From positions 1 to 44,434 of the forward strand of contig JACRFK010000004.1 in NCBI GenBank assembly GCA_016217925.1: a DNA stretch of 44,434 nt, written 5' to 3'. Positions within the stretch are counted from its first letter, which is position 1; every line of letters begins with the position of its first letter. A model generated the notes under the pieces. That model worked only from the letters and a program-made list of their open reading frames with translations, did no database searches and was not told where the DNA came from. Of the stretch, positions 1-35,037 are shown in pieces. A program made the translations under genes and the position numbers. The DNA comes from Candidatus Kaiserbacteria bacterium (GTDB taxonomy: Bacteria > Patescibacteriota > Minisyncoccia > Phycocordibacterales > UBA2100).

Positions 1-1086
<1,086 letters not shown>

Positions 1087-3954: not shown

Positions 3955-4770
3955 CTATTTCCCGCTCTCCGCTATGGCCCTGAAGGTCACAAGTGCCTGG
4001 TGGAGGGCCCGCACATCATGCGTACGTATGTAGTCGGCACCCTGCGTAGCCGCGAACACCTCCGCCGCAAGTGTGCGGCTTTGGATGTCGATGTCAGGAG
4101 ACGGTGCAATGTTGCGCAGGAACGACTTGCGTGAGACCGATATCATCACCGGCAGTCCGAAGTGCTTTTTTAATTCCGCGACATGCGAGAGGACGGCGAG
4201 CGAAGGCTCCGGATTGCTTGCCAGGAAAAATCCCATGCCGGGGTCAATGATAAGGCGCTCGCGCGCGATACCTGCCGCTTCGAGTGCGGGCAACCGGGTC
4301 CCGAAAAATGAATAGATGGAGTCGAAAACTTCCCGCGTGGTTTTCGGGATGCGCACCGCCTTGTCGAGGTCGGAAATAAAATGCATGACAACCAACTGTG
4401 CCCCGGACGCCGCGAGCTCCGGATACAAAGACTCATCGGGAAATCCGCGGATATCGTTAAGATACGCGATGTGTTTTGCCATCCCAAACCGCAAGACTTC
4501 CGGTTTGGTCGCATCAATCGAAACATCAAGGCCCGGCCTTGATATTGCTTCCAATACGGACCGTATCCGTTCGATTTCAACCTCCGCCGGCACGGGTGCG
4601 GAATGCGGATTGCTCGAGGCGCCGCTTATTTCAACGATATCCGCACCTTCCGCAAGAAGTTTATTTGCGTGCTCTATCGCAGCGCCTGATTCAAGATACT
4701 GTCCGCCGTCGGAAAACGAGTCGGCGGTGATGTTGACGATGCCTACTATTTTCGGTCGATGGGCTTTCAT
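3955..4770 (-). CDS. folP: dihydropteroate synthase, Sul-like
   Basis: GIVNITADSFSDGG, DPGMGFFL, SRKSF and IRTHDV motifs. Confidence 0.93.
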   Translation of the reverse strand: MKAHRPKIVGIVNITADSFSDGGQYLESGAAIEHANKLLAEGADIVEISGASSNPHSAPVPAEVEIERIRSVLEAISRPGLDVSIDATKPEVLRFGMAKHIAYLNDIRGFPDESLYPELAASGAQLVVMHFISDLDKAVRIPKTTREVFDSIYSFFGTRLPALEAAGIARERLIIDPGMGFFLASNPEPSLAVLSHVAELKKHFGLPVMISVSRKSFLRNIAPSPDIDIQSRTLAAEVFAATQGADYIRTHDVRALHQALVTFRAIAESGK

Positions 4771-4835
4771 AGAGATAGGATTTTAGCATGGTACCCGCTT
4801 TTTGAGCTTTGCGGATGCCTCTGCTAGTATGCCGT

Positions 4836-5189
4836 ATGGATTACATTCACATTGACGACCTCAGAGTCTCCGGGAATCACGGAGTCAGAGAGGAGGAGCG
4901 GGCGAAGCCCCAAGAGTTCCTCATCTCGATACGCATCGGCGCCGACACGAAAAAAGCGGCATTGAGCGGACAACTTGCTGATACTATCGACTACCACGAC
5001 ACGCTGAAACTTATCGAACACGTATTTGAGAACACGAGCCACAGCCTCCTCGAGACAATAGCCGAGCATATCGCCGCAGAGATACTGAAGGACAAGCGCG
5101 TGAGCTCGGTCGAACTGACCATAAAAAAAACAGGCGTGTGGCGCAACGGCATCCCCGGCGTCACGATCCGCCGGGAGCAGGCCCGATGA
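4836..5189 (+). CDS. folB: dihydroneopterin aldolase
   Basis: GNHGV-EE..PQEF, DTIDY, LLETIAE and LTIKK motifs. Start at MDYI, after TG-C-TAGTAT. Confidence 0.88.
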   Translation: MDYIHIDDLRVSGNHGVREEERAKPQEFLISIRIGADTKKAALSGQLADTIDYHDTLKLIEHVFENTSHSLLETIAEHIAAEILKDKRVSSVELTIKKTGVWRNGIPGVTIRREQAR

Positions 5190-5649
5190 TGGACAATTTG
5201 TTTGGCGGGAGTTCACCCAGAAGCTGGGAGACCATCTTTTTCGTCACGGGTTCTCGAAGAGCCGGCGCAATTTCATAAAGCGGCCTCAGCACAAAGTCGC
5301 GCTCGCGCAGGCCTGCGTGCGGGACGGTGAGTTCGGGGGTATCGATAATTTCATTTCCATACAAAAGAAAGTCAATATCTATCGCTCGCGGGGCATTGTG
5401 CTCATGCTCCCCTATCTCTTTTTCAACCGACTTTATTTTCTTGAGAACATCCTCCGGAGAAAGTTCCGTCGTCGCCTCGCACACCGCATTGAAAAAGTCC
5501 GGCTGATCCGTGACATACATCGGCTTGGTTTCGTAGGTTGGTGAAATCTTCGTAACAGTAATTTCTGGCGCGAGCGAAGCGAGCGCCCTTTGAATGTTCC
5601 CTGCCCTATCGCCGAGATTTGAACCGAGTCCGAGATATATCGTCTTCAC
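5161..5649 (-). CDS. folK: 6-hydroxymethyl-7,8-dihydropterin pyrophosphokinase
   Basis: YLGLGSNLGDR, YETKP, PRAIDIDFL, LTVPH and ERDFVLRPL motifs. GTG start. Confidence 0.93.
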   Translation of the reverse strand: MKTIYLGLGSNLGDRAGNIQRALASLAPEITVTKISPTYETKPMYVTDQPDFFNAVCEATTELSPEDVLKKIKSVEKEIGEHEHNAPRAIDIDFLLYGNEIIDTPELTVPHAGLRERDFVLRPLYEIAPALREPVTKKMVSQLLGELPPNKLSIIGPAPGGS

Positions 5650-8607: not shown

Positions 8608-11019
8608 TCAGTGGTTAATTAACCAATTTATATCCGCCGCCAATAATTCATATGCTTGCTGGTTAATAATACCAGTCTTTTTGACGCCGTTGAGTATGCT
8701 GAGCATGGATTTGTATATGCTGTTTTTATTACCTGGTCTTTTTTGCTGCTGCGCCAACGTAAGTAACGTGCTGAGCGACGTTTTGATGCCGGCAGATTTT
8801 ATCCATCCCAGAGAGAATGCGCGATTAATGTCGCTTTGAGTGCTGTTCGCCGTCGCTATCACCTGGATTACCCTCTCTGAAGTCGTGGCGTTATTTACGA
8901 GATCCATTGCATAGGCAGAGATCGTGTGGTTACCGAGTGTTTGAAAGAAAAGGTCGGTCGTAGAGCTTGCCGCAACGGTCGTTGTGTCAAAGGCAACACT
9001 GGATGAAGCAACTCCGGTCGCATCACTAAAGATGGCGCGTATCGGCAGCTTCTCCGAATGCGTGTAAGTCGCTGATGTAGGTTGAACAATGGTGATGGTT
9101 GGAGGAGTCTGGTCAACGGGCGCAATGGTAGTCTGATTTGGTTGGTCTGGATTCACGTCAACGCTAAGCTCGGTTATCAAATCCGGTAGCGTTTGTCCGG
9201 TAAAGAACGTTTCGCTCGAAGTTGCATTGCCGATCACTCCTGTGGCGATTGTATAAGAACCGCCGTTGCCGGTGCCCTGTGTGATGATTTTGTATACACC
9301 GTCGAGTGGATTAGGGATAGTTATGTATTCCTCATCGGTCCCAAAACCGGAGTAAAAAGCGTCGGGAATTTGATTGAACTCGTCTCCGGTGGCAAAGTTC
9401 TTCCCGACCTTCAGACCATCAGGCGCGACGACGACAATGTCAGCCGGAGAAAGGATTTGGAAGATAAGTACATTCTTCAATGTTTCTGCCAACCCGTGAT
9501 TATTGTTAACAAGCGTTGCCGCGTCGTTGCCTGTGAGTTTCTTAAATACCATACCTTCTGTCTTGGTGGGTAATTCGTTATGTTCCGAACTAGTGATTTG
9601 TAGATCGCTGATAACCAAAGCCGCGGAAGACAACGGCACAGTGCCGTCACCGGCTCCGCGCTCTAGCCCCTGATCAGTTGAACTATCGCCAAATCTCTCC
9701 GGCTTGCCGAGTCCCCACAGGGCTACAGGGTTGACGACGGTTGGTGGAACAACACGGATGGTTGTAATTGTTGTGTCATCAGCGGTCTGACCAACGAAGT
9801 TCGAAATCGTTACCCCAGAATTGTAGAGTTCAGTAACATTGTTGTTCAAATCAGAAAGGAAGAGGTTGTTGGGATACCAAGCTGAATTCGGAAACGAAGG
9901 AATGTTAGACGAGCCGACGTGTTTGATATATCCGTAGACGGGTAGTAATTCTTGGACAGAAGGGACGGGAAAGTTACGTTCGTAGTCGAATAGCTTTGAA
10001 TAACCATGTTTACGCGCTTCAATCCTGAGAAAGGTTAATAGCTGTTGATCGCCAGCGTCAGTGTCTGCTTCTCCCCCCTCCCACATCAAATAAGCTTTCG
10101 GTGCACCTAGGTGTGGCGTACCGAGGAATATTAGTTTCCGGACATCGTGCTCATAGTCATTCGACTGAATATATTGTCTTGCGACGAGACCTCCCATCGA
10201 GTGGGCTACTATATCGACTTTGTCACACCCACAAATAGTTTTGACCTCATCTATTTTCTGCTTCAAAAGAAACGCCGTTTCTCTATTGGACACGCGCCAC
10301 TCATAGGGAAACGGGAAAAGCGTTACACCCTTCTCATACCCATTCGCATCGAGAGTATCAATAAGGTTGTCATATGCATGCGTGATAGGGTCGATGAGCC
10401 ACTCCCCGTTGTGCTGAGCAGATCCGAGGATCCCAGGAATAATGACAACGGGTGTGTACGCGGTTGGAGCGCTTGCGTCGGTGACGGTAAAGCGAATGGT
10501 TTCTATGTAGTCTTCGGCAGATTGCGCATACGCGGTCTCACCAAACACAAAATGCAAAAAGGTATTGAAGGGATTCCTATTCACCTGAGATGCTCGTTCT
10601 TGGTACACGTCGAGCTCATAGACTCCCGGCTGCTCCCAGATGAACGTTTGCGCACCGGAAAATCCCCCAATCGGTCCTATGAGTTCTCTTGTTTGCGATT
10701 GCTCTTGTTTGAGTACGCGGTACAAAACACCGCTCACACTGAAAGAAACTCCGGATTCGCTGTGAGCAACGTAGACATCCTTCGAGACGTGGAGTGGAAC
10801 AGGGTACGTTCCGCCATCTTCCATAAATGTGAGTCTGGCCGAAATAAGCTCGCCTGTATTGTCATCAAATATCATGTCGCCCCACACAAGCTGCGAGGTA
10901 TCCGCATTGGATGTCCTGGGTGTCGCGAGAAGGAGGAGTGTGGCGGCCGACGCGGCCAAGAATATTGCCGTGCCGTGCATGTGAGGCGGCCAAACACTCG
11001 ACCTCGGAGCGTTTTGCAT
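8608..11019 (-). CDS. secreted alpha/beta-hydrolase (LCAT/PGAP1-like lipase or acyltransferase) with C-terminal Ig-like/helical domains
   Basis: Signal-like N-terminus, PVVIIPGILGS, FPYEWR, VAHSMGGL nucleophile elbow, LGTPHLGAP and GDGTVP. Confidence 0.85.
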   Translation of the reverse strand: MQNAPRSSVWPPHMHGTAIFLAASAATLLLLATPRTSNADTSQLVWGDMIFDDNTGELISARLTFMEDGGTYPVPLHVSKDVYVAHSESGVSFSVSGVLYRVLKQEQSQTRELIGPIGGFSGAQTFIWEQPGVYELDVYQERASQVNRNPFNTFLHFVFGETAYAQSAEDYIETIRFTVTDASAPTAYTPVVIIPGILGSAQHNGEWLIDPITHAYDNLIDTLDANGYEKGVTLFPFPYEWRVSNRETAFLLKQKIDEVKTICGCDKVDIVAHSMGGLVARQYIQSNDYEHDVRKLIFLGTPHLGAPKAYLMWEGGEADTDAGDQQLLTFLRIEARKHGYSKLFDYERNFPVPSVQELLPVYGYIKHVGSSNIPSFPNSAWYPNNLFLSDLNNNVTELYNSGVTISNFVGQTADDTTITTIRVVPPTVVNPVALWGLGKPERFGDSSTDQGLERGAGDGTVPLSSAALVISDLQITSSEHNELPTKTEGMVFKKLTGNDAATLVNNNHGLAETLKNVLIFQILSPADIVVVAPDGLKVGKNFATGDEFNQIPDAFYSGFGTDEEYITIPNPLDGVYKIITQGTGNGGSYTIATGVIGNATSSETFFTGQTLPDLITELSVDVNPDQPNQTTIAPVDQTPPTITIVQPTSATYTHSEKLPIRAIFSDATGVASSSVAFDTTTVAASSTTDLFFQTLGNHTISAYAMDLVNNATTSERVIQVIATANSTQSDINRAFSLGWIKSAGIKTSLSTLLTLAQQQKRPGNKNSIYKSMLSILNGVKKTGIINQQAYELLAADINWLINH

Positions 11020-28528: not shown

Positions 28529-29095
28529 ATGTCCATGCTTGCATATAACGAAGTGCTTCCGAAAAAACTGGTTATCGTCGACGGCGAGCCATACGAAGTG
28601 CTTTCTGCATGGGTATTTCGCAAGCAGCAGCGCAAGCCCGTCAATCAGGTAAAGCTCCGCAATTTGAAGACCGGCTCGATGGCCGAACAGACGTTCCACG
28701 TATCCGACAAAGTGGAGGAAGCCGAAGTCGAGTCGCGTCCCGCCATTTTCATATACGAACGCAACGGCGAGTGGTTCTTCCACGAGGCAAGTGACAAATC
28801 AAAACGATTTGCGCTCGATGCGGACCACATCGGCGACTCCGGAAAGTACCTCAAGGGAAATACGGAGGTCGAGGTGCGATGGTTCGATGAAAAGCCGATA
28901 CAGGTGAAGATCCCGGTCAAGATGGAACTCAAAGTCATTGATGCCCCGCCGAATACCCGCGGCAATACGGCCCAGGGAGGCAGCAAGGTCGTGAAGCTTG
29001 AGACAGGGGCCGTGATGGACGTCCCGATGTTCATCGAAACAGGCGATGTCATCAGAATAAACACCGAGACAGGCGAGTATGTCGAGAGAGTCTAG
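28529..29095 (+). CDS. efp: elongation factor P
   Basis: IVDGEPY, KLRNLKTG, PNTRGNTAQGG, LETGA..VP.FI..GD and INTETGEY.ER. Confidence 0.96.
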   Translation: MSMLAYNEVLPKKLVIVDGEPYEVLSAWVFRKQQRKPVNQVKLRNLKTGSMAEQTFHVSDKVEEAEVESRPAIFIYERNGEWFFHEASDKSKRFALDADHIGDSGKYLKGNTEVEVRWFDEKPIQVKIPVKMELKVIDAPPNTRGNTAQGGSKVVKLETGAVMDVPMFIETGDVIRINTETGEYVERV

Positions 29096-29124
29096 GGGAG
29101 AGTACGCCTGCCCCTAAAGGACTG

Positions 29125-29194
29125 CGATTTGTCGTCGCGCTATGCGCGAACAAATCGGGAGCCCGTAGCCTGCGCGGAGCGCTATGCTACCGGG
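29125..29194. repeat. two adjacent hairpins after efp
   Basis: 29125-29157 CGATTTGT..ACAAATCG and 29162-29194 CCCGTAGC..GCTACCGGG; both contain GCGCTATGC. Confidence 0.5.
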
Positions 29195-29236
29195 GTCGAG
29201 CGGGTCTAAATCACTGCTCAGGCTATAATGGCCACC

Positions 29237-30133
29237 ATGCCGGTAAGTATCGTGGCGGAAGGCGGCTCAATGCGCGCGGCGTACGCCGTCGGAGCGGTGA
29301 ACGCGCTTTTTTCTCACTACGGCCTCAAACGGGTCGACGTCGTTACGGGTACCTCGGGCTCGGCTCCTGCAATGGCATTTTACGCTGCCGGCTCCTTCCC
29401 TTCCTGCTACAACGCATGGCGCGGGGAGGTCCCTTCTCCGCGACTTTTGGGTTTCTCGAACATCCTGCACCGGCGACCGTACTTTGATATTGATTATCTC
29501 GTGGACGTCATTGTGCGTGAACGCGCAGGACTGGACGTCACAGCCCTAAAACGCTCCCCGGTGCGGCTTGTCTTACCTGTTACTTCTTACCGCACCGGTC
29601 ACATAGAATATGTAGATTTCAATACATCGAACCTCAACGTATTCGACGTGATGAGAGCCGCGATGAGCATTCCTATCGCCTACAACAAAACCGTCCGGCT
29701 CGACGACGACACCTACTTCGACAGTCACCTCGGAGACCCGCTCTGCCTCGACAACCCGTACATTGCGGGTACGAGAAAGATAATCATCCTCACATATCCC
29801 CTCGACTATGTGTGGTCGCGCAGGAAAAGGATGCAGACCCGTCTGTTCCGTCCTCTCATCAGCTCCGTCGTGTACCGCGCGCTTTTGGCATCGTTTGATA
29901 AGCGGGCGGAGGCAATGCGGCGATGCCATGAATGCATGCAAACCGGGGATGTGATAATCGCGCCGGTGAAGTTGGAGGGGCGACCGCTCGATAACAGTCG
30001 ACAAAATATAGATTTCCTCATCCGGCAGGGATACGAAGACGCAGTCCAAAATCTCCATCTTCAGGGTTTAATCGGTACGATGCGGACGTCGCCGAGGGCC
30101 GACTTCTATTTCCCGCCCCCAACAACCGTATGA
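29237..30133 (+). CDS. patatin-like phospholipase 1
   Basis: AEGGSMRAAY oxyanion loop, GTSGS nucleophile and RAAMSIP..YN....D..Y.D. Start 7 nt after TATAAT. Confidence 0.82.
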   Translation: MPVSIVAEGGSMRAAYAVGAVNALFSHYGLKRVDVVTGTSGSAPAMAFYAAGSFPSCYNAWRGEVPSPRLLGFSNILHRRPYFDIDYLVDVIVRERAGLDVTALKRSPVRLVLPVTSYRTGHIEYVDFNTSNLNVFDVMRAAMSIPIAYNKTVRLDDDTYFDSHLGDPLCLDNPYIAGTRKIIILTYPLDYVWSRRKRMQTRLFRPLISSVVYRALLASFDKRAEAMRRCHECMQTGDVIIAPVKLEGRPLDNSRQNIDFLIRQGYEDAVQNLHLQGLIGTMRTSPRADFYFPPPTTV

Positions 30134-31059
30134 ATATCAGCATCGTAGCAGAGGGTGGAGGTGTCCGTGGCGCGTATGTGTGTGGGGTTATGTGCGCCCT
30201 GTGGATGGAATACGGCTTGCGGCGGGTAGACGTCGCTACGGGGACATCTGCCTCTGCCGGCACGCTCGCCTACTTTACCGCAGGCCACGGACACCGCGAT
30301 GCCTGGGATGTATGGACCAAGGAGGTCGCCTCTCCGGAATTTATCAGCGTGCGTAATCTACTTCGTCTACGCCCGTTGATGGACCTCGATCATCTCATCG
30401 ACGTCGTATTCAGATACCGTTACCCGCTTGATGTCGCCGCAATAAAGAGATCCTCGATGCGATTATTTATTCCGGTCGAATCAGTCACCACCGGCAAGAT
30501 TGAATACATAGATGCACAGCGTTCTCCGTACGATGTCTTCGAAATATTAAAGGCGTCCAGTGCCGCCCCGATTGCGTACAATAAAACAATTGCACTCGGC
30601 GGAGACCGTTACTGCGACCCCTATTTCAACGAGGCTGTCCCACTCGGTGCCCCCGCCCTGGCCAGAACAAAAAAAATAATCATACTCGCCAAACCCCGTA
30701 CCCACGAACTCGCTGTCGAGAGCAACGTTGCCATACATCTCGGCAGACCTTTTATTTCCTCCGCGGTTTATCGCACGATGCTTCACTCCGGCAAGCACCG
30801 GAATGCGCTTATGGAACAGTGTAAAACGCTCGAAGAAGAGGGGCATATCGTTATCGCCCCCGAACATCTCTACGGTAGCGCATTAGGTAACCGACCGGAA
30901 TCCCTTCGATACATGATCCGGCGGGGCTATCAGGATGCCGTCGCACACGGACCACTGCGAGCACTTGTGGAAGATCTGTGTCGCTCACCAAAAAGGAGTG
31001 CTTACTTCGATAGTGATAATCTCGCTCCTATCCGGCCGAGTTTTATGGACACCGTATGA
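30130..31059 (+). CDS. patatin-like phospholipase 2 (tandem paralog)
   Basis: AEGGGVRGAY, GTSAS and KASSAAP..YN....GG..YCD; overlaps the upstream stop (ATGA). Confidence 0.85.
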   Translation: MNISIVAEGGGVRGAYVCGVMCALWMEYGLRRVDVATGTSASAGTLAYFTAGHGHRDAWDVWTKEVASPEFISVRNLLRLRPLMDLDHLIDVVFRYRYPLDVAAIKRSSMRLFIPVESVTTGKIEYIDAQRSPYDVFEILKASSAAPIAYNKTIALGGDRYCDPYFNEAVPLGAPALARTKKIIILAKPRTHELAVESNVAIHLGRPFISSAVYRTMLHSGKHRNALMEQCKTLEEEGHIVIAPEHLYGSALGNRPESLRYMIRRGYQDAVAHGPLRALVEDLCRSPKRSAYFDSDNLAPIRPSFMDTV

Positions 31060-31358
31060 ACATCGGCATCGACATCGTCCGTATTTCACGCGTTGAAGAA
31101 CTGCTGCGCGACCCGGTGCGCGCGGGAGAGGTGTTCGCGCCTGAGGAAATGACCGCGGATGTACAGACGATGGCCGGGCGGTTTGCCGCGAAAGAAGCGT
31201 ATTTCAAGGCGGCCGGTGAAAAACGCGATTGGAAATCGGTCCTGGTATTGAAACACGAAGGGGGGATGCCGTATCTCGTGTGCCCCGAGGAAAACAGAGC
31301 TAAAGTGAGCATCAGCCATGACGGCGAGTATGCAACTGCTATAGTTCTTATCGAATAG
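31056..31358 (+). CDS. acpS: holo-[acyl-carrier-protein] synthase
   Basis: IGIDIV, AGRFAAKEA..KA and SISHD..YA.A.V. Confidence 0.93.
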   Translation: MNIGIDIVRISRVEELLRDPVRAGEVFAPEEMTADVQTMAGRFAAKEAYFKAAGEKRDWKSVLVLKHEGGMPYLVCPEENRAKVSISHDGEYATAIVLIE

Positions 31359-31359
31359 T

Positions 31360-33852
31360 ATGAAAACCGAGTTACGGACCATCACCGACCTTATTGAGTC
31401 GTTTGACGCAAGACGCGGCGACGCAATCATATACAAGAACGGCTTCAGGACCTTCCGCTATTCATATCCCCAACTCGCCTCTCTCGTCCGTAAGTGTGCG
31501 TCGCTGTACCAAAAACACGGGATACAGGCCGGGGACAAAATCGCGCTCTGGGGACCGAATCGTCCCGAGTGGGTCATTGCACATTTGGGTGCCGTATATT
31601 GCGGCGCGGTAGCGGTCCCGATAGACATACAAGCTCTTCCCGAGGCAGCCGCAAAAATCGTGCAGCATTCAGAGGTGCGACTCATTGTCAAATCCGCGCT
31701 GCGCAAGCCGTATCTCACCGAAGTCCCGACCATTATCTTGGACGACTTGGAATTCGACCTCGACCTTCCGGAAGCCGGCCCCCGGGAAGCGCGCGAGGAT
31801 GAGCCCCTGGATATCGTTTACACATCCGGAACGACCGGCGACCCCAAGGGAGTCGTGCTCACGCACGGCAATATCATGTCAAACGTGCGCGGTATCATCG
31901 AACATCTCCGGGTGGACGAACGGGACTCCATCCTGTCGTTGCTCCCGATAAGTCACATGCTCGGACAAACGTGCGGAGTGCTTGCTCCTCTTGCAGCCGG
32001 AATGTCCGTCGTCTTCTTGGGCTCGATGACCGCGGGCGCGATGTTCGCGGCATTCCGGCAGGAACGCATCACCATCGTGCTCGCGGTACCGCGGATACTC
32101 CAAGGAATACGCTCTGGTGTTGAATCGAAGCTGCAAAGCAGCGGAATCGGGCGTATGCTCTCCCGGCTATCAGTGCGGACCGCAGGCGCACCCCGGACCG
32201 TGAAAAAAATATGTTTCTTCCTCATACATCGTCCCTTCGGTTCTTCACTCCGCTTTTTTGTTTCCGGAGGAGCCGCTATTGACGCCGCGACGGTCTCTTT
32301 TGCGGACCGGTTCGGTTTCAAAATACTCCAGGGATACGGTCTCACCGAATGCTCGCCCATTCTGACCGCTGAACGCGAATCGGAAGCGGGAGGCAAAAGC
32401 GCAGGAGTTGTTATCAGAGATGTGGAGCTCCGCATTGCGCCGGACGGGGAAATCCTCGCCCGCGGGCCGAATATATTCACTGAATACTATAAGGACCCGG
32501 ATCGCACCGCAGAGACTTTCAGAGAAGGCTGGTTCCTGACGGGAGATTTCGGAGAGCTTGATGCCGGCGGACATTTGTCTATTAAGGGCCGGAAGAAGGA
32601 GACCATCGTGACTCCGGCGGGAGTAAATGTATATCCGGACGACGTCGAGCCTATTCTGAACGCCGTGCCCGGCGTGAAGGAATCGTGCGTAGTGGGTATA
32701 CAACGCGACGACGGTGAGGAAGTACACGCCGTCGTTATCCCCTCGGACCCGGCGGTCCCGGCATCCGAGATTATGCACGCCGCAAACGGCCGCCTGAACT
32801 CGAGCCAGCACATCCAGTCGCTGTCATTTTGGACCGGTCCCGAATTCCCCAAGACGACGACACTGAAAATTAAACGCGGGCTTGTTCGTGAAAGTGTCAG
32901 AGAGGCGAGAAAAGGTCATGTCGCAGCCGCCGTCGCACCATCGAAGCTGCGAGGCCTGATATCCCAAGTGACACGGGTGCCGGTGGAGGAGATTGCGGAG
33001 AATTCTCGCCTGTATGCCGACCTGAAGCTTGACTCAATCGGGCGTATCGAGCTTTCTTCGCTCATAACCCAGGAGTACTTCTTTGATTTTGAGGAGGACC
33101 ACATCACCGAAACGACGAACGTCGGAAACCTCGAACGCATCGTCGCATCGCGCGCAAAACTAAACTCGTATTTTAACTTCCCCGGGTGGCCGCACTGGCG
33201 GATCATGGCCATCGCACGCTTCCTGGGGATGGAGCTGATTAACGCTAACATTGCACGCTTCTTTATCCGGGAAACCATCCGCGGCAAGGAAAATCTGCGC
33301 GGACTGCACGGCCCCGTCATTTTCGCCGCCAATCACGTGAGCTTCGGCGACCATGCCCTTATATTTCGAGCCCTGCCGTATCGTTATCGCTACATGTTCG
33401 CTTCCCCCGCATTCGCCGAATTCTTTTTCTTGGACAAGAGCAGACCCCCCTGGGAACGCGCGTGGAAAAAGTTCTCGTATTATTACGGGGCAGCAACTAT
33501 GGCGCTTTTCCCCACATCGGAGGTCTACAGCTCAAAGCGCGCGCTCGAACACACCGGCGGCCTCATCGACAGCGGTGAAAGTATTCTCATCTTTCCTGAA
33601 GCCGAGCGCACGCGCACGCGTGAAATGCTTCCGTTCAGAAAGGGCACCGCAATATTACTGAAAAACATACGCGTACCGGTCGTCCCTATCGGTCACCGTG
33701 GGATGGAATATATTTATCCGCGCGATGCCGCATTCCCGCACTTCGGAAAGGCGACGGTCAACATCGGAAAACCGATAACGTTCGGGAAGGAGTCAATAGA
33801 GGAAATTACCACCCGACTCCAGGCAGAGATTGAAAAACTCAGACATCTTTAA
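31360..33852 (+). CDS. fusion of long-chain acyl-adenylate ligase, ACP (PP-binding) and PlsC-type acyltransferase
   Basis: YTSGTTGDPKG, GYGLTECSP and TGDFG; DLKLDSIGRIEL Ppant site; ANHVSFGD (HX4D) and IFPEAERT. Confidence 0.9.
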   Translation: MKTELRTITDLIESFDARRGDAIIYKNGFRTFRYSYPQLASLVRKCASLYQKHGIQAGDKIALWGPNRPEWVIAHLGAVYCGAVAVPIDIQALPEAAAKIVQHSEVRLIVKSALRKPYLTEVPTIILDDLEFDLDLPEAGPREAREDEPLDIVYTSGTTGDPKGVVLTHGNIMSNVRGIIEHLRVDERDSILSLLPISHMLGQTCGVLAPLAAGMSVVFLGSMTAGAMFAAFRQERITIVLAVPRILQGIRSGVESKLQSSGIGRMLSRLSVRTAGAPRTVKKICFFLIHRPFGSSLRFFVSGGAAIDAATVSFADRFGFKILQGYGLTECSPILTAERESEAGGKSAGVVIRDVELRIAPDGEILARGPNIFTEYYKDPDRTAETFREGWFLTGDFGELDAGGHLSIKGRKKETIVTPAGVNVYPDDVEPILNAVPGVKESCVVGIQRDDGEEVHAVVIPSDPAVPASEIMHAANGRLNSSQHIQSLSFWTGPEFPKTTTLKIKRGLVRESVREARKGHVAAAVAPSKLRGLISQVTRVPVEEIAENSRLYADLKLDSIGRIELSSLITQEYFFDFEEDHITETTNVGNLERIVASRAKLNSYFNFPGWPHWRIMAIARFLGMELINANIARFFIRETIRGKENLRGLHGPVIFAANHVSFGDHALIFRALPYRYRYMFASPAFAEFFFLDKSRPPWERAWKKFSYYYGAATMALFPTSEVYSSKRALEHTGGLIDSGESILIFPEAERTRTREMLPFRKGTAILLKNIRVPVVPIGHRGMEYIYPRDAAFPHFGKATVNIGKPITFGKESIEEITTRLQAEIEKLRHL

Positions 33853-33874
33853 AATGCATGCTACGCTTCCCGTC

Positions 33875-35005
33875 ATGAAGTCTCGAGAGCGTGCGGCGGC
33901 GTTGCTGGCGCAAGCCGGCATCACTCCCGACGGGAGCAACCCTTGGGACCCGCAGATACATAACGAACATCTCTTTGACCGCCTGTTCGCCGGGGGTACG
34001 CTGGCACTTGGAGAAAGTTATATGGACGGCTGGTGGGATGTGGAGGACTTATCCGGATTTATTTTCCGGCTATTTCGATCTGACAGCGTGCAACAAATGC
34101 TTCGCATAGGCATGGTCCCCCAGATTATTAAGTCGAAACTATTCAACTTACAAAATCGGAGCCGGGCACGGAAAGTCGGGGAGGACGTCTACGACATCGG
34201 CAACGACCTCTACGAGGCTATGCTTGGTCCGAGCATGGCGTACACTTGCGGCTATTGGAAAAACGCGTCGAATTTGGACGAGGCGCAAGACGCCAAGTTT
34301 GATTTCATTTGCCGCAAGCTCGGCCTTAAATCCGGCGACAATATACTCGACATAGGTTGCGGGTGGGGAAACTTCCTCGCATACGCCGCTAGAAAGTACG
34401 GTGTCTCTGGTGTCGGTATTACTATATCGAAAGAGCAAATCACCTTTGCCCGCGAAGTCGTGCGCGGGCTGGATGTTGAGATACGCTTCGAGGACTACCG
34501 CGATACGCTAGGAAAGTTCGACCATATAGTTTCAATCGGCATGTTTGAACACGTCGGACCAAAGAATTACCGCGTATTTATGAAAAAGGTGCGTAGTCTG
34601 CTGTCCGACGACGGCCTATTTTTACTCCATACGATCGGACACAGCAAAGTATCGCGAAGCCTTGAGCGTTGGTTCAACAAGTATATCTTCCCGAACGGTC
34701 ATTTGCCGTCGATAACACACATAGCCAAAGCGACGGACCGGCGAAATCTCTTCGACAAACCCGTCCTGACGATGGAAGACTGGCATAACTTCGGTGCTGA
34801 TTATGACAAGACTTTGACGGCGTGGTACGCCAATTTTGAACATTCGTGGCCGAAATTAAAGGGAAAATATGACGAGCGTTTCTATCGTATGTGGAAATAT
34901 TACCTACTTGTGTCTGCAGGGATGTTCAGAGCCCGATACCTGCATTTGTGGCAAATCGTGTATTCAAAAAATGGCGTCGTGGGAGGATATACATCTATCA
35001 GATAA
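33875..35005 (+). CDS. cfa: cyclopropane-fatty-acyl-phospholipid synthase
   Basis: LGESYMDGWW, YDIGNDLY, MAYTCGYW, LDIGCGWG, SIGMFEHVG and KYIFPNG. Start chosen 7 nt after TG-C-TACGCT. Confidence 0.95.
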   Translation: MKSRERAAALLAQAGITPDGSNPWDPQIHNEHLFDRLFAGGTLALGESYMDGWWDVEDLSGFIFRLFRSDSVQQMLRIGMVPQIIKSKLFNLQNRSRARKVGEDVYDIGNDLYEAMLGPSMAYTCGYWKNASNLDEAQDAKFDFICRKLGLKSGDNILDIGCGWGNFLAYAARKYGVSGVGITISKEQITFAREVVRGLDVEIRFEDYRDTLGKFDHIVSIGMFEHVGPKNYRVFMKKVRSLLSDDGLFLLHTIGHSKVSRSLERWFNKYIFPNGHLPSITHIAKATDRRNLFDKPVLTMEDWHNFGADYDKTLTAWYANFEHSWPKLKGKYDERFYRMWKYYLLVSAGMFRARYLHLWQIVYSKNGVVGGYTSIR

Positions 35006-35037
35006 AGAAAAAACCCTTGTCGGGGATTTTTCTTTTT
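35004..35037. terminator. bidirectional terminator-like hairpin between cfa and rpsR
   Basis: A-run, CCC-TTGTC-GGG, T-run. Confidence 0.5.

What the first reader, a model, noticed from the sequence alone, without database searches (positions are those of the whole stretch)
29237..35005. Putative phospholipid salvage and re-acylation operon (patatin x2, acpS, ligase-ACP-acyltransferase, cfa)
Seen: four genes with overlapping or 1-nt-spaced stop/start codons behind one TATAAT, followed by cfa. Established: patatins release fatty acids and lysolipids; adenylate-forming ligases load fatty acid onto ACP; AcpS activates ACP; HX4D acyltransferases acylate lysolipids; Cfa cyclopropanates phospholipids; CPR genomes generally lack de novo fatty-acid synthesis. 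Inference: together these form a cycle that strips acquired (host) phospholipids and rebuilds them as the cell's own membrane. This would address how a CPR cell gets its lipids. AcpS needs CoA, which would probably have to be imported.
Basis: partly seen in the sequence, partly recalled or inferred. Interest (0 to 1): 0.88.

Follow-up and report, generated by a model that had tools for sequence, protein, structure and literature searches.

The report
Fatty-acid salvage operon in Kaiserbacteria
A tiny symbiotic (CPR) bacterium carries a tightly packed five-gene operon that could free fatty acids from acquired lipids, load them onto a built-in carrier and re-attach them to membrane lipids, giving a testable candidate answer to how such cells, thought unable to make fatty acids, build membranes.

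Summary
Five same-strand genes lie at 29237-35005: two patatin-like lipases, a 100-aa AcpS, an 830-aa acyl-AMP ligase / carrier domain / PlsC-like acyltransferase fusion, and Cfa. Two junctions are ATGA overlaps and one is a 1-nt gap. A conserved TATAAT sits 7 nt before the first ATG. All catalytic motifs are intact. RecA is 90-92% identical to Candidatus Kaiserbacteria, so the organism is CPR.

The conserved core is only acpS plus the fusion. acpS was adjacent in 13 of 15 CPR/DPANN contexts and in 0 of 5 free-living contexts (Geobacter, Chloroflexota, Nitrosomonas). A patatin gene joins in 6 of 15, in unrelated neighbourhoods. cfa appears only in this Kaiserbacteria genus and looks laterally acquired.

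The fusion is not CPR-specific. It belongs to a very large "ElbD-like without reductase" family, and no member has demonstrated acyltransferase activity. The patatins have no signal peptide, so they act inside the cell. Absence of FASII could not be tested from this window.

Best reading: an Aas-like exogenous fatty-acid activation and lysolipid acylation module that carries its own carrier domain and its own PPTase. The papers searched did not describe this cassette in CPR.

The parts
29224..29229 (+). TATAAT -10 element, 7 nt upstream of the pat1 ATG. The spacing suggests a leaderless or near-leaderless transcript.
   Evidence: TATAAT-N7-ATG is invariant in the window, L089 and L085. There is no -35, and the consensus scan did not flag the site. 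The relative L084 has a hairpin followed by TATAAT before acpS.
29237..30133 (+). pat1: cytoplasmic patatin-like phospholipase, 298 aa. It has the GGxR oxyanion motif, nucleophile Ser40 (in GTSGS) and Asp162.
   Evidence: Pfam Patatin 1.8e-14. The dyad residues are invariant in 7- and 45-sequence family alignments. No TM or signal segment was found.
30130..31059 (+). pat2: paralogous patatin-like phospholipase, 309 aa, 42% identical to pat1. Dyad residues are Ser40 and Asp163. The gene is hypervariable between close relatives.
   Evidence: Pfam Patatin 8.7e-13 plus DUF6363. The AF2 model has pLDDT 88, and its best PDB matches are CapV/CapE, PlpD, patatin and iPLA2. It is only 52% identical to the orthologue in a relative whose neighbouring genes are 85-96% identical.
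31056..31358 (+). acpS: short (100 aa) AcpS-type 4'-phosphopantetheinyl transferase.
   Evidence: PF01648 3.1e-11 and TIGR00556 above its cutoff. It aligns to the Bacillus AcpS structures 3HYK and 1F80, with the GIDI and FAAKEA motifs present. It lies next to the fusion in 13 of 15 CPR/DPANN contexts.
31360..33852 (+). Tri-domain fusion, 830 aa: acyl-AMP/ACP ligase (residues 17-501, nt 31408-32862), carrier domain (residues 529-593, nt 32944-33138, Ser559 at 33034-33036) and PlsC-like acyltransferase (residues 639-778, nt 33274-33693, H659/D664 at 33334-33351).
   Evidence: Pfam. Invariant motif residues are seen across 20 homologues and their coordinates were confirmed. The adenylation domain is closest to FadD13 among PDB entries. 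The C-terminal domain model has pLDDT 87, and its top fold match is T. maritima PlsC 5KYM (E 7e-11, TM 0.63-0.66).
33875..35005 (+). cfa: cyclopropane-fatty-acyl-phospholipid synthase, 376 aa. An alternative in-frame ATG lies at 33854.
   Evidence: NCBIfam equivalog NF008686, 542 bits against a cutoff of 400. It is about 51% identical to E. coli Cfa 6BQC, E 2e-116. The start was chosen by conservation. Its GC is 0.50, against 0.54-0.56 for its neighbours.
35007..35037 (.). Short hairpin flanked by A- and T-runs, between the convergent cfa and rpsR genes. It is a possible bidirectional terminator.
   Evidence: Read directly from the sequence. It did not meet the criteria of the terminator scan, so the evidence is weak.

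Best explanation
This is an operon for re-using acquired fatty acids in membrane glycerolipids.

1. AcpS transfers 4'-phosphopantetheine from CoA to Ser559 of the fusion's carrier domain.
2. The N-terminal adenylate-forming domain activates a free long-chain fatty acid with ATP and thioesterifies it to that in-cis carrier.
3. The C-terminal PlsC-like (HX4D) domain, sitting at the inner face of the membrane, transfers the acyl group to a lyso-glycerolipid (lyso-phospholipid or lysophosphatidate).
4. The two cytoplasmic patatin-like Ser-Asp hydrolases supply substrates, free fatty acid and/or lysolipid, from lipids already taken into the cell.
5. In this genus Cfa then cyclopropanates unsaturated chains in place.

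Shown here: gene content, order and coupling; intact catalytic motifs; folds; CPR origin; conserved acpS-fusion linkage that is specific to small-genome lineages. Inferred: fatty-acid substrate, acceptor identity, in-cis channelling, the patatins' role as substrate suppliers, and the biological role (bulk membrane building versus repair).
For: - Domains and motifs.
- PlsC-like fold of the acyltransferase domain.
- Patatin fold and invariant dyad.
- Translational coupling and a conserved -10 element.
- acpS lies immediately next to the fusion in 13 of 15 CPR/DPANN contexts. These include Kaiserbacteria, Sungbacteria, Uhrbacteria, Nanobdellota and Woesearchaeota, in unrelated neighbourhoods.
- acpS was adjacent in 0 of 5 free-living contexts. 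One-sided hypergeometric p is about 0.0014, but the samples are not independent.
- Patatin is coupled to the fusion in three separate settings: the Kaiserbacteria relatives, Sungbacteria L086 and L097. It is also adjacent but divergently oriented in L002.
- Other glycerolipid genes lie beside the cassette elsewhere: CdsA in the Woesearchaeota locus and a DAG-kinase-like gene in the Uhrbacteria locus.
- Precedents. E. coli Aas performs the same two-step chemistry with free ACP (PMC11416262). The ligase and ACP activities of the homologous ElbD core were shown in vitro (PMC9131029).
- Need. CPR are reported to lack lipid synthesis and to be enriched in lysolipids (PMC7242380). No lipid uptake or breakdown mechanism had been identified as of 2024 (PMC11665869).
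Against: - No family member has demonstrated acyltransferase activity. None was detected for purified ElbD (PMC9131029).
- The family is abundant in free-living, FASII-bearing bacteria, where its role is unknown.
- Absence of FASII, PlsX/Y/C and acpP in this genome is untested. None lies in the 44-kb window, which is not informative.
- The cluster has no flippase or transporter. The MFS gene next to the Saccharibacteria homologue is not recognisably LplT.
- Hydrolase plus re-acylase in one operon is a futile cycle unless their substrates differ.
- cfa and the second patatin are lineage-specific.
- The CoA source for AcpS is unknown.
- Substrate chain length is only inferred. All ligase NCBIfam hits fall below their curated cutoffs.
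Confidence: 0.55

Rival explanations
1. The biochemistry is the same but the role is membrane repair or homeostasis, as for LplT/Aas in E. coli. The module mops up toxic lysolipids and free fatty acids produced by the cell's own or foreign phospholipases. It is not the route by which the cell obtains its bulk lipids.
For: Aas/LplT is a repair system (PMC11416262). The fusion family is widespread in free-living bacteria that make their own fatty acids. The patatins are intracellular.
Against: The dedicated acpS is retained next to the fusion specifically in reduced genomes. That argues the carrier-dependent step matters where little else needs a PPTase. Carrying two hydrolase genes in a streamlined genome is costly for mere repair.
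Confidence: 0.2
2. The fusion makes a specialised lipid rather than re-acylating phospholipids. Candidates are an ElbD-type precursor, an acylated non-glycerolipid acceptor, or a neutral lipid. Its link with the patatins reflects turnover of that lipid.
For: ElbD, the only genetically studied relative, acts in ether-lipid synthesis (PMC9131029). ElbD-like hits in DPANN have been read that way (PMC11868695). The acceptor specificity of PF01553 domains is broad.
Against: No reductase (FAR) domain and no elbB/C/E neighbours are present. The best structural match is the LPA acyltransferase PlsC. CdsA and DAG-kinase-like neighbours in other loci point to phosphatidate metabolism.
Confidence: 0.13
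3. The patatins and Cfa are functionally independent passengers (toxins, defence effectors, stress adaptation) that happen to share a transcription unit with acpS and the fusion.
For: Patatin is absent from 9 of 15 cassette contexts and cfa from 13 of 15. pat2 is hypervariable, like conflict genes. The closest structural matches of pat2 are the CBASS effectors CapV and CapE. cfa looks laterally acquired.
Against: None of the cluster's proteins matches a PADLOC patatin-effector model (only Cfa matches a PADLOC model, mad2), and no cyclase lies nearby. Patatin is translationally coupled (4-nt overlaps) to the cassette in Kaiserbacteria relatives, Sungbacteria L086 and L097. Structural similarity to CapV is at the level of the general fold (15-17% identity).
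Confidence: 0.1

Closest known systems
E. coli Aas (2-acyl-GPE acyltransferase / acyl-ACP synthetase) with the LplT flippase
   Same: It carries out the same two-step chemistry in one polypeptide. An adenylate-forming domain loads fatty acid onto a phosphopantetheine thiol, and an HX4D acyltransferase domain then acylates lysophospholipid at the inner membrane face (PMC11416262).
   Different: The domain order is reversed: Aas is AT-ligase, this protein is ligase-ACP-AT. Aas uses free AcpP, whereas here the carrier is fused and comes with its own acpS. No lplT partner is present. NCBIfam Aas equivalog scores are far below cutoff (166 against 1221 bits).
Myxococcus xanthus ElbD (ether-lipid multidomain enzyme), and the 'ElbD-like homologues lacking FAR' noted by Lorenzen et al. 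2014
   Same: They share the ACS-ACP-AGPAT core architecture, and this protein belongs to that homologous family. The ligase and ACP functions of the core were shown in vitro (PMC9131029). Longer ElbD-type forms (1,418-1,789 aa) turned up in the same genome scan.
   Different: There is no FAR/reductase domain and no elb operon neighbours. Here the partners are acpS and patatin. ElbD's acyltransferase activity has never been demonstrated.
PlsC (1-acyl-sn-glycerol-3-phosphate acyltransferase), Thermotoga maritima 5KYM
   Same: It is the best structural match of the C-terminal domain (E 7e-11, TM about 0.65). It shares the HX4D and FPEGxR-type motifs and a long N-terminal helix like the membrane-anchoring helices of PlsC.
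   Different: PlsC is a stand-alone enzyme that takes diffusible acyl-ACP or acyl-CoA. Here the donor is presumably tethered in cis. Sequence identity is only 18-20%.
Soluble acyl-ACP synthetase AasS (Vibrio harveyi) and Chlamydia AasC/LpaT
   Same: They activate exogenous fatty acids to acyl-ACP for incorporation into phospholipid. AasS appears among the PDB sequence hits (8HSY, 9e-21). The Chlamydia pair is a salvage route in a reduced genome (PMC5693948).
   Different: Those enzymes are separate proteins that feed a complete FASII/Pls system through free ACP.
Eukaryotic Lands cycle (PLA2/patatin-type iPLA2 plus LPLAT)
   Same: It follows the same deacylation and re-acylation logic, with a patatin-fold hydrolase and an AGPAT-fold acyltransferase.
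   Different: The eukaryotic cycle uses acyl-CoA, its enzymes are unlinked, and its purpose is remodelling rather than acquisition.

Membership tests
Patatin-like phospholipase (PF01734) | Pfam domain score above the gathering threshold | tested here: met
   pat1 scores 54.8 bits and pat2 49.3 bits, against a threshold of 27.7.
Patatin-like phospholipase (PF01734) | Gly-rich oxyanion motif, nucleophile-elbow Ser and catalytic Asp (Ser-Asp dyad) | tested here: met
   The GGxR motif, Ser40 and Asp162/163 are present. Ser and Asp are the invariant columns in a 45-sequence family alignment. The local motifs are non-canonical: GTSxS instead of GxSxG, and D-P/S instead of DGG/A.
Patatin-like phospholipase (PF01734) | Patatin alpha/beta fold | tested here: met
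   The pat2 AF2 model has pLDDT 88. There are 27 PDB matches with E<=1e-3, all patatin-fold lipases.
Patatin-like phospholipase (PF01734) | Lipid acyl-hydrolase activity and substrate or positional specificity | not testable with these tools
   This requires an enzyme assay.
AcpS-type (group I) phosphopantetheinyl transferase | PF01648/TIGR00556 match, with the Mg/CoA-binding Asp near the N-terminus and the FAAKEA Glu/Lys motif | tested here: met
   PF01648 scores 43.7 against 25, and TIGR00556 scores 54 against 45.35. GIDIV and FAAKEAYFKA are present, and the protein aligns with 3HYK and 1F80. All NCBIfam equivalog models score below cutoff, so it is a divergent short form.
E. coli-type Aas (acyl-[ACP]--phospholipid O-acyltransferase) | NCBIfam equivalog score, and N-terminal acyltransferase followed by C-terminal synthetase with no carrier domain | tested here: not met
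   NF006386 scores 166 bits against a cutoff of 1221. The architecture is ligase-ACP-AT.
E. coli-type Aas system | Partner LplT lysophospholipid flippase | tested here: not met
   No MFS gene lies in the cluster or the window. The MFS gene next to the Saccharibacteria homologue does not match an LplT model.
ElbD (myxobacterial ether-lipid enzyme) | ACS-ACP-AGPAT core | tested here: met
   Pfam architecture. Homologous long forms were found in Myxococcales, Phycisphaerae and Acidobacteriota.
ElbD (myxobacterial ether-lipid enzyme) | FAR-like reductase domain and elbB/C/E operon partners | tested here: not met
   No reductase domain is found in the 830-aa protein, and the neighbours are patatin, acpS and cfa.
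AGPAT/PlsC-type LPLAT (PF01553) | HX4D motif I, motif III (FPEGxR-like), motif IV Pro, and the PlsC/GPAT fold | tested here: met
   H659, D664, F745-P-E747 and P776 are invariant in 20 homologues. The fold search returns 5KYM first, then GPATs.
AGPAT/PlsC-type LPLAT (PF01553) | Acyl transfer to LPA or a lysophospholipid | not testable with these tools
   This requires an assay. It was not detected for ElbD in vitro (PMC9131029).
ANL adenylate-forming fatty-acid ligase | A3 (TSGTTGxPKG), A5 (GYGxTE), A7 (TGD), A8 (GRxK) and A10 Lys motifs | tested here: met
   The invariant residues are T155-G164, G325-E330, T394/D396, R411/K413 and K503. The best PDB hit is FadD13, 2.4e-49. All NCBIfam ligase models score below their cutoffs, so substrate class is inferred.
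Cyclopropane-fatty-acyl-phospholipid synthase (Cfa) | NCBIfam equivalog cutoff and full-length similarity to E. coli Cfa | tested here: met
   NF008686 scores 541.8 against 400. 6BQC matches at E 2e-116, about 51% identity over 357 positions.
CBASS patatin effectors (CapV/CapE) | Match to defence-system models and association with a CD-NTase | tested here: not met
   There are no PADLOC hits for pat1 or pat2. No cyclase lies in the window. Only fold-level similarity is seen.

The most novel reading that the evidence does not exclude
The acpS + (ligase-ACP-PlsC) cassette, often with a patatin, may be the main, horizontally shared route by which fatty-acid-auxotrophic ultra-small symbionts of both domains assemble diacyl membrane lipids from scavenged fatty acids and lysolipids. 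That would cover CPR bacteria and DPANN archaea. It would be a self-contained 'one-enzyme acyl-ACP economy' in which the fused carrier is the cell's principal or only phosphopantetheinylated protein. It would also imply that some DPANN archaea handle bacterial-type acyl lipids. The hypervariable second patatin would then tune the system to the lipids of a particular host.
Probability: 0.3. Interest if true: 0.85.

Novelty: new variant of a known kind. Interest (0 to 1): 0.7.

Why it matters
How CPR/Patescibacteria obtain membrane lipids is an acknowledged open question. A 2020 study reported that enzymes producing or requiring ACP were not identified in the CPR genomes it examined, and proposed lysolipid uptake (PMC7242380). 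[quoted passage not shown]

This locus offers a concrete and cloneable candidate. It is a carrier-containing acyltransferase with its own PPTase, linked to lipases, and conserved across several CPR and DPANN lineages. The question therefore becomes testable with ordinary heterologous expression and lipid assays.

The locus would also assign a function to a very large uncharacterised protein family, the ElbD-like proteins without a reductase domain. That family is also present in Geobacter, Chloroflexota and many other groups.

Tried and rejected
It returned mostly stand-alone acyl-CoA ligases. Only about 15 loci carried the three-domain form, and the window's own species was not recovered.
- The metagenome scan with the single protein gave only one close relative.
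- The listing of cluster members returned no organism names. Taxonomy came from RecA instead.
- The word-indexed homologue search for pat2 found only 6 proteins. The exhaustive profile search was needed.
- I tested whether the MFS gene beside the Saccharibacteria homologue is LplT. NCBIfam gave no support.
- I tested the defence-effector idea for the patatins. PADLOC gave no hits.
- I looked for a known RNA element in the conserved 140-nt leader region upstream of pat1. Rfam found nothing at gathering threshold, and the fold z-score is only -2.05.
- An NJ tree of the fusions shows CPR sequences scattered among free-living clades. This is consistent with repeated HGT, but the tree is a rough distance tree without support values, so I do not rely on it.
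- Literature searches for Patescibacteria combined with patatin, lysophospholipid, acyl-ACP synthetase or PPTase found no description of this cassette.
- Absence of FASII could not be addressed.


Full report
**Observation**

On the + strand, between efp (28529-29095) and the convergent rpsR-ssb-rpsF genes, lie five ORFs. Pfam and NCBIfam assign them as follows:

| Gene | Coordinates | Assignment |
|---|---|---|
| pat1 | 29237-30133 | Patatin, 1.8e-14 |
| pat2 | 30130-31059 | Patatin, 8.7e-13, plus a weak DUF6363 hit |
| acpS | 31056-31358 | PF01648, 3.1e-11; TIGR00556 above cutoff |
| fusion | 31360-33852 | AMP-binding 6.5e-73, PP-binding 2.1e-07, Acyltransferase 9.9e-13 |
| cfa | 33875 (or 33854)-35005 | Equivalog NF008686, 542 bits against a cutoff of 400 |

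The pat1/pat2 and pat2/acpS junctions are ATGA overlaps, and acpS/fusion is separated by 1 nt.

- **cfa start.** The ATG at 33854 lies 1 nt after the fusion's stop codon. Relatives have ATA at that position and conserve the ATG equivalent to 33875, so the likely spacer is 22 nt.
- **pat1 start.** The longer ORF from 29228 is not conserved.
- **Promoter.** The motif TATAAT-N7-ATG is invariant in the window and in relatives L089 and L085, the latter at 66% fusion identity. That spacing fits a leaderless or near-leaderless transcript. There is no -35 box, and the consensus scan did not flag the site.
- **Terminator.** A short hairpin with flanking A/T runs follows cfa. It did not meet the scan criteria.

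**Organism**

RecA is 90-92% identical to proteins named Candidatus Kaiserbacteria / Paceibacterota / Parcubacteria. The named genome Kaiserbacteria RIFCSPHIGHO2_02_FULL_55_20 carries the same cluster. CPR origin is therefore confirmed. The rest of the window looks typical of such genomes: large PG_binding proteins, a Wzy-like protein, a TrmB regulator and a PEP-utilising enzyme. It contains no fab, acc or pls gene. Forty-four kilobases cannot show that those genes are absent from the genome.

**The proteins**

Both patatins keep the GGxR oxyanion motif, the nucleophilic Ser and the catalytic Asp. In a 45-member family alignment, those Ser and Asp residues are two of only three invariant columns. 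The flanking motifs are non-canonical: GTSxS, and D-P or D-S.

An exhaustive profile search shows that they belong to a large family of roughly 290-aa proteins, with 854 cluster representatives at E<=1e-30. The pat2 model (pLDDT 88) matches only patatin-fold lipases. Neither patatin has a signal peptide or TM segment.

AcpS is a short, group-I-type PPTase with its motifs intact.

The fusion keeps all ANL core motifs, the carrier Ser559, and the HX4D motif (H659/D664) with motifs III and IV. These residues are invariant across 20 homologues.

- The ligase domain is most similar to FadD13-type fatty-acyl ligases.
- The C-terminal domain model (pLDDT 87) matches T. maritima PlsC best (E 7e-11), followed by GPATs.

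Cfa is about 51% identical to E. coli Cfa. Its GC is lower than that of its neighbours, which suggests lateral acquisition.

**Comparative context**

The fusion family is huge: 7,929 of the 8,000 scored candidates have E<=1e-10. It includes Geobacter sulfurreducens at about 39% identity, where a source names it an acyl-ACP ligase / acyl carrier fusion.

Within the Kaiserbacteria backbone (ftsK-recA-efp ... rpsR-ssb-rpsF) gene content grades as follows:

| Fusion identity to window | Cluster content |
|---|---|
| 92% | All five genes |
| 66% | One patatin, acpS, fusion |
| 57-59% | acpS and fusion only |

Contexts outside that backbone, in unrelated neighbourhoods:

| Locus / lineage | Arrangement |
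|---|---|
| Sungbacteria L086 | patatin-acpS-fusion |
| L097 | fusion-patatin, with a 4-nt overlap |
| L094 and L096 | acpS-fusion |
| Uhrbacteria L004 | acpS-fusion, with a convergent DAG-kinase-like gene |
| MAG labelled Methanosarcinales, L002 | Divergent patatin, then acpS-fusion |
| Nanobdellota L087 | acpS-fusion |
| Archaeal locus with a histone-fold gene, L095 | acpS-fusion |
| Woesearchaeota L006 | fusion-acpS, with a convergent CdsA |
| Saccharibacteria L008 | fusion followed by an MFS transporter; no acpS |

Geobacter, two Dehalococcoidia, an Anaerolineaceae and a Nitrosomonas MAG carry the fusion with no adjacent acpS or patatin.

| Neighbour of the fusion | CPR/DPANN contexts | Free-living contexts |
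|---|---|---|
| acpS | 13 of 15 | 0 of 5 |
| patatin | 6 of 15 | 0 of 5 |
| cfa | 2 of 15 | — |

For acpS the one-sided hypergeometric p is about 0.0014. Five of the 15 contexts are related Kaiserbacteria, so the samples are not independent. A rough NJ tree places the CPR fusions among different free-living clades. That would fit repeated transfer, with acpS linkage arising or being kept wherever the genome is reduced.

**Mechanism**

The best-supported reading is an Aas-like salvage and acylation module.

1. AcpS primes the fused carrier.
2. The ligase loads a fatty acid onto it.
3. The PlsC-like domain acylates a lyso-glycerolipid at the inner membrane face.
4. The cytoplasmic patatins provide fatty acid and/or lysolipid from internalised lipid.
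5. Cfa modifies the products in this genus.

Gene content, coupling, motifs, folds, taxonomy and the conserved linkage are shown here. Substrates, in-cis channelling and the physiological role are inferred.

The main weaknesses are these:

- No acyltransferase activity is known for any family member. None was detected for ElbD (PMC9131029).
- The family occurs in FASII-bearing bacteria.
- FASII absence is untested for this genome.
- The cluster has no transporter.
- A hydrolase and a re-acylase in one operon form a futile cycle unless their substrates differ.

The step of attacking host membranes fits a different gene better. The 803-aa LCAT/PGAP1-like lipase at 8608-11019 has an N-terminal hydrophobic anchor and a GHSMGG motif.

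**Comparison with known systems**

- **Aas/LplT.** The module works like E. coli Aas/LplT (PMC11416262) but is not a member. It differs in domain order, has a fused carrier, scores far below the equivalog cutoff and has no LplT partner.
- **ElbD.** The fusion is homologous to the ACS-ACP-AGPAT core of ElbD. It belongs to the 'ElbD-like homologues lacking FAR' noted in 2014 (PMC9131029), and ElbD hits in Woesearchaeia have been reported (PMC11868695). It lacks the reductase domain and the elb neighbours.
- **Literature on CPR.** The searches found no paper describing acpS-fusion(-patatin) as a cassette in CPR or DPANN. A 2024 perspective says that lipid uptake and breakdown mechanisms are unidentified in Patescibacteria (PMC11665869). 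Probst et al. reported that enzymes producing or requiring ACP were not identified in the CPR genomes they studied (PMC7242380).

**Verdict**

The conserved functional unit is acpS plus the fusion. Patatin is a frequent accessory, and cfa is a recent local addition. The fusion itself is a known, though uncharacterised, family.

I class this as a new variant of a known kind, with interest 0.7. It makes the CPR membrane-lipid problem directly testable.

Noticed in passing
window 30130-31059 (pat2): pat2 is hypervariable. Against a relative whose RecA, EF-P, pat1, AcpS, fusion and Cfa are 85-96% identical, pat2 is only 52% identical. DNA identity drops to 0.42-0.66 across the gene and recovers to about 0.9 within acpS, and GC3 is lower than in the neighbours. 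This points to allele replacement or diversifying selection.
   Followed up: partly
window 8608-11019 (-): An 803-aa LCAT/PGAP1-like alpha/beta lipase. It has an N-terminal hydrophobic anchor or signal, a GHSMGG nucleophile elbow and a C-terminal Ig-like / OmpL47-like region. It is probably a surface or secreted lipase that could act on host lipids.
   Followed up: partly
window 1-1086 (-): This is the 5' third of a bacterial 23S rRNA gene (Rfam RF02541, 799 bits), cut by the window edge. ORFs listed at 90-395 and 805-1092 are therefore spurious.
   Followed up: yes
window 29096-29223: A roughly 130-nt intergenic region between efp and the -10 element is conserved with L089 at about the level of coding sequence. 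It contains a strong hairpin at about 29125-29157. There is no Rfam match, and the fold z-score is only -2.05. L085 lacks the region.
   Followed up: partly
L098/L099 1498-3699 (-): In the named Kaiserbacteria relative, two tandem GDSL-like lipase genes sit just upstream of recA, a few kb from the cluster.
   Followed up: no
L008 10518-11765 (+): In a Saccharibacteria genome the fusion has no adjacent acpS but is followed directly by an MFS_1 transporter. This is reminiscent of aas-lplT, although NCBIfam does not recognise the transporter as LplT.
   Followed up: partly
L003 7224-7952, L009 7021-7866, L012 7177-8007 (+): In all three Chloroflexota loci a metallo-beta-lactamase-fold gene lies immediately upstream of the fusion. 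This is a conserved partner different from the one in CPR.
   Followed up: no
L095 2894-3976 (+); L006 10705-11655 (-); L004 10474-11466 (-): Other lipid genes lie beside the cassette in DPANN and CPR loci. A FabH-like KAS III sits in an archaeal locus that also has a histone-fold gene. A CdsA-type cytidylyltransferase sits in Woesearchaeota, and a DAG-kinase-like gene in Uhrbacteria.
   Followed up: partly
window 3955-5649 (-): folP (Pterin_bind) and folK (HPPK) lie adjacent, a partial folate branch in a CPR genome.
   Followed up: no
window 33854-35005: Cfa is about 51% identical to E. coli Cfa, and its GC is 0.50 against 0.54-0.56 for its neighbours. It is present only in this Kaiserbacteria genus among the contexts seen, which suggests acquisition from Proteobacteria.
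   Followed up: partly
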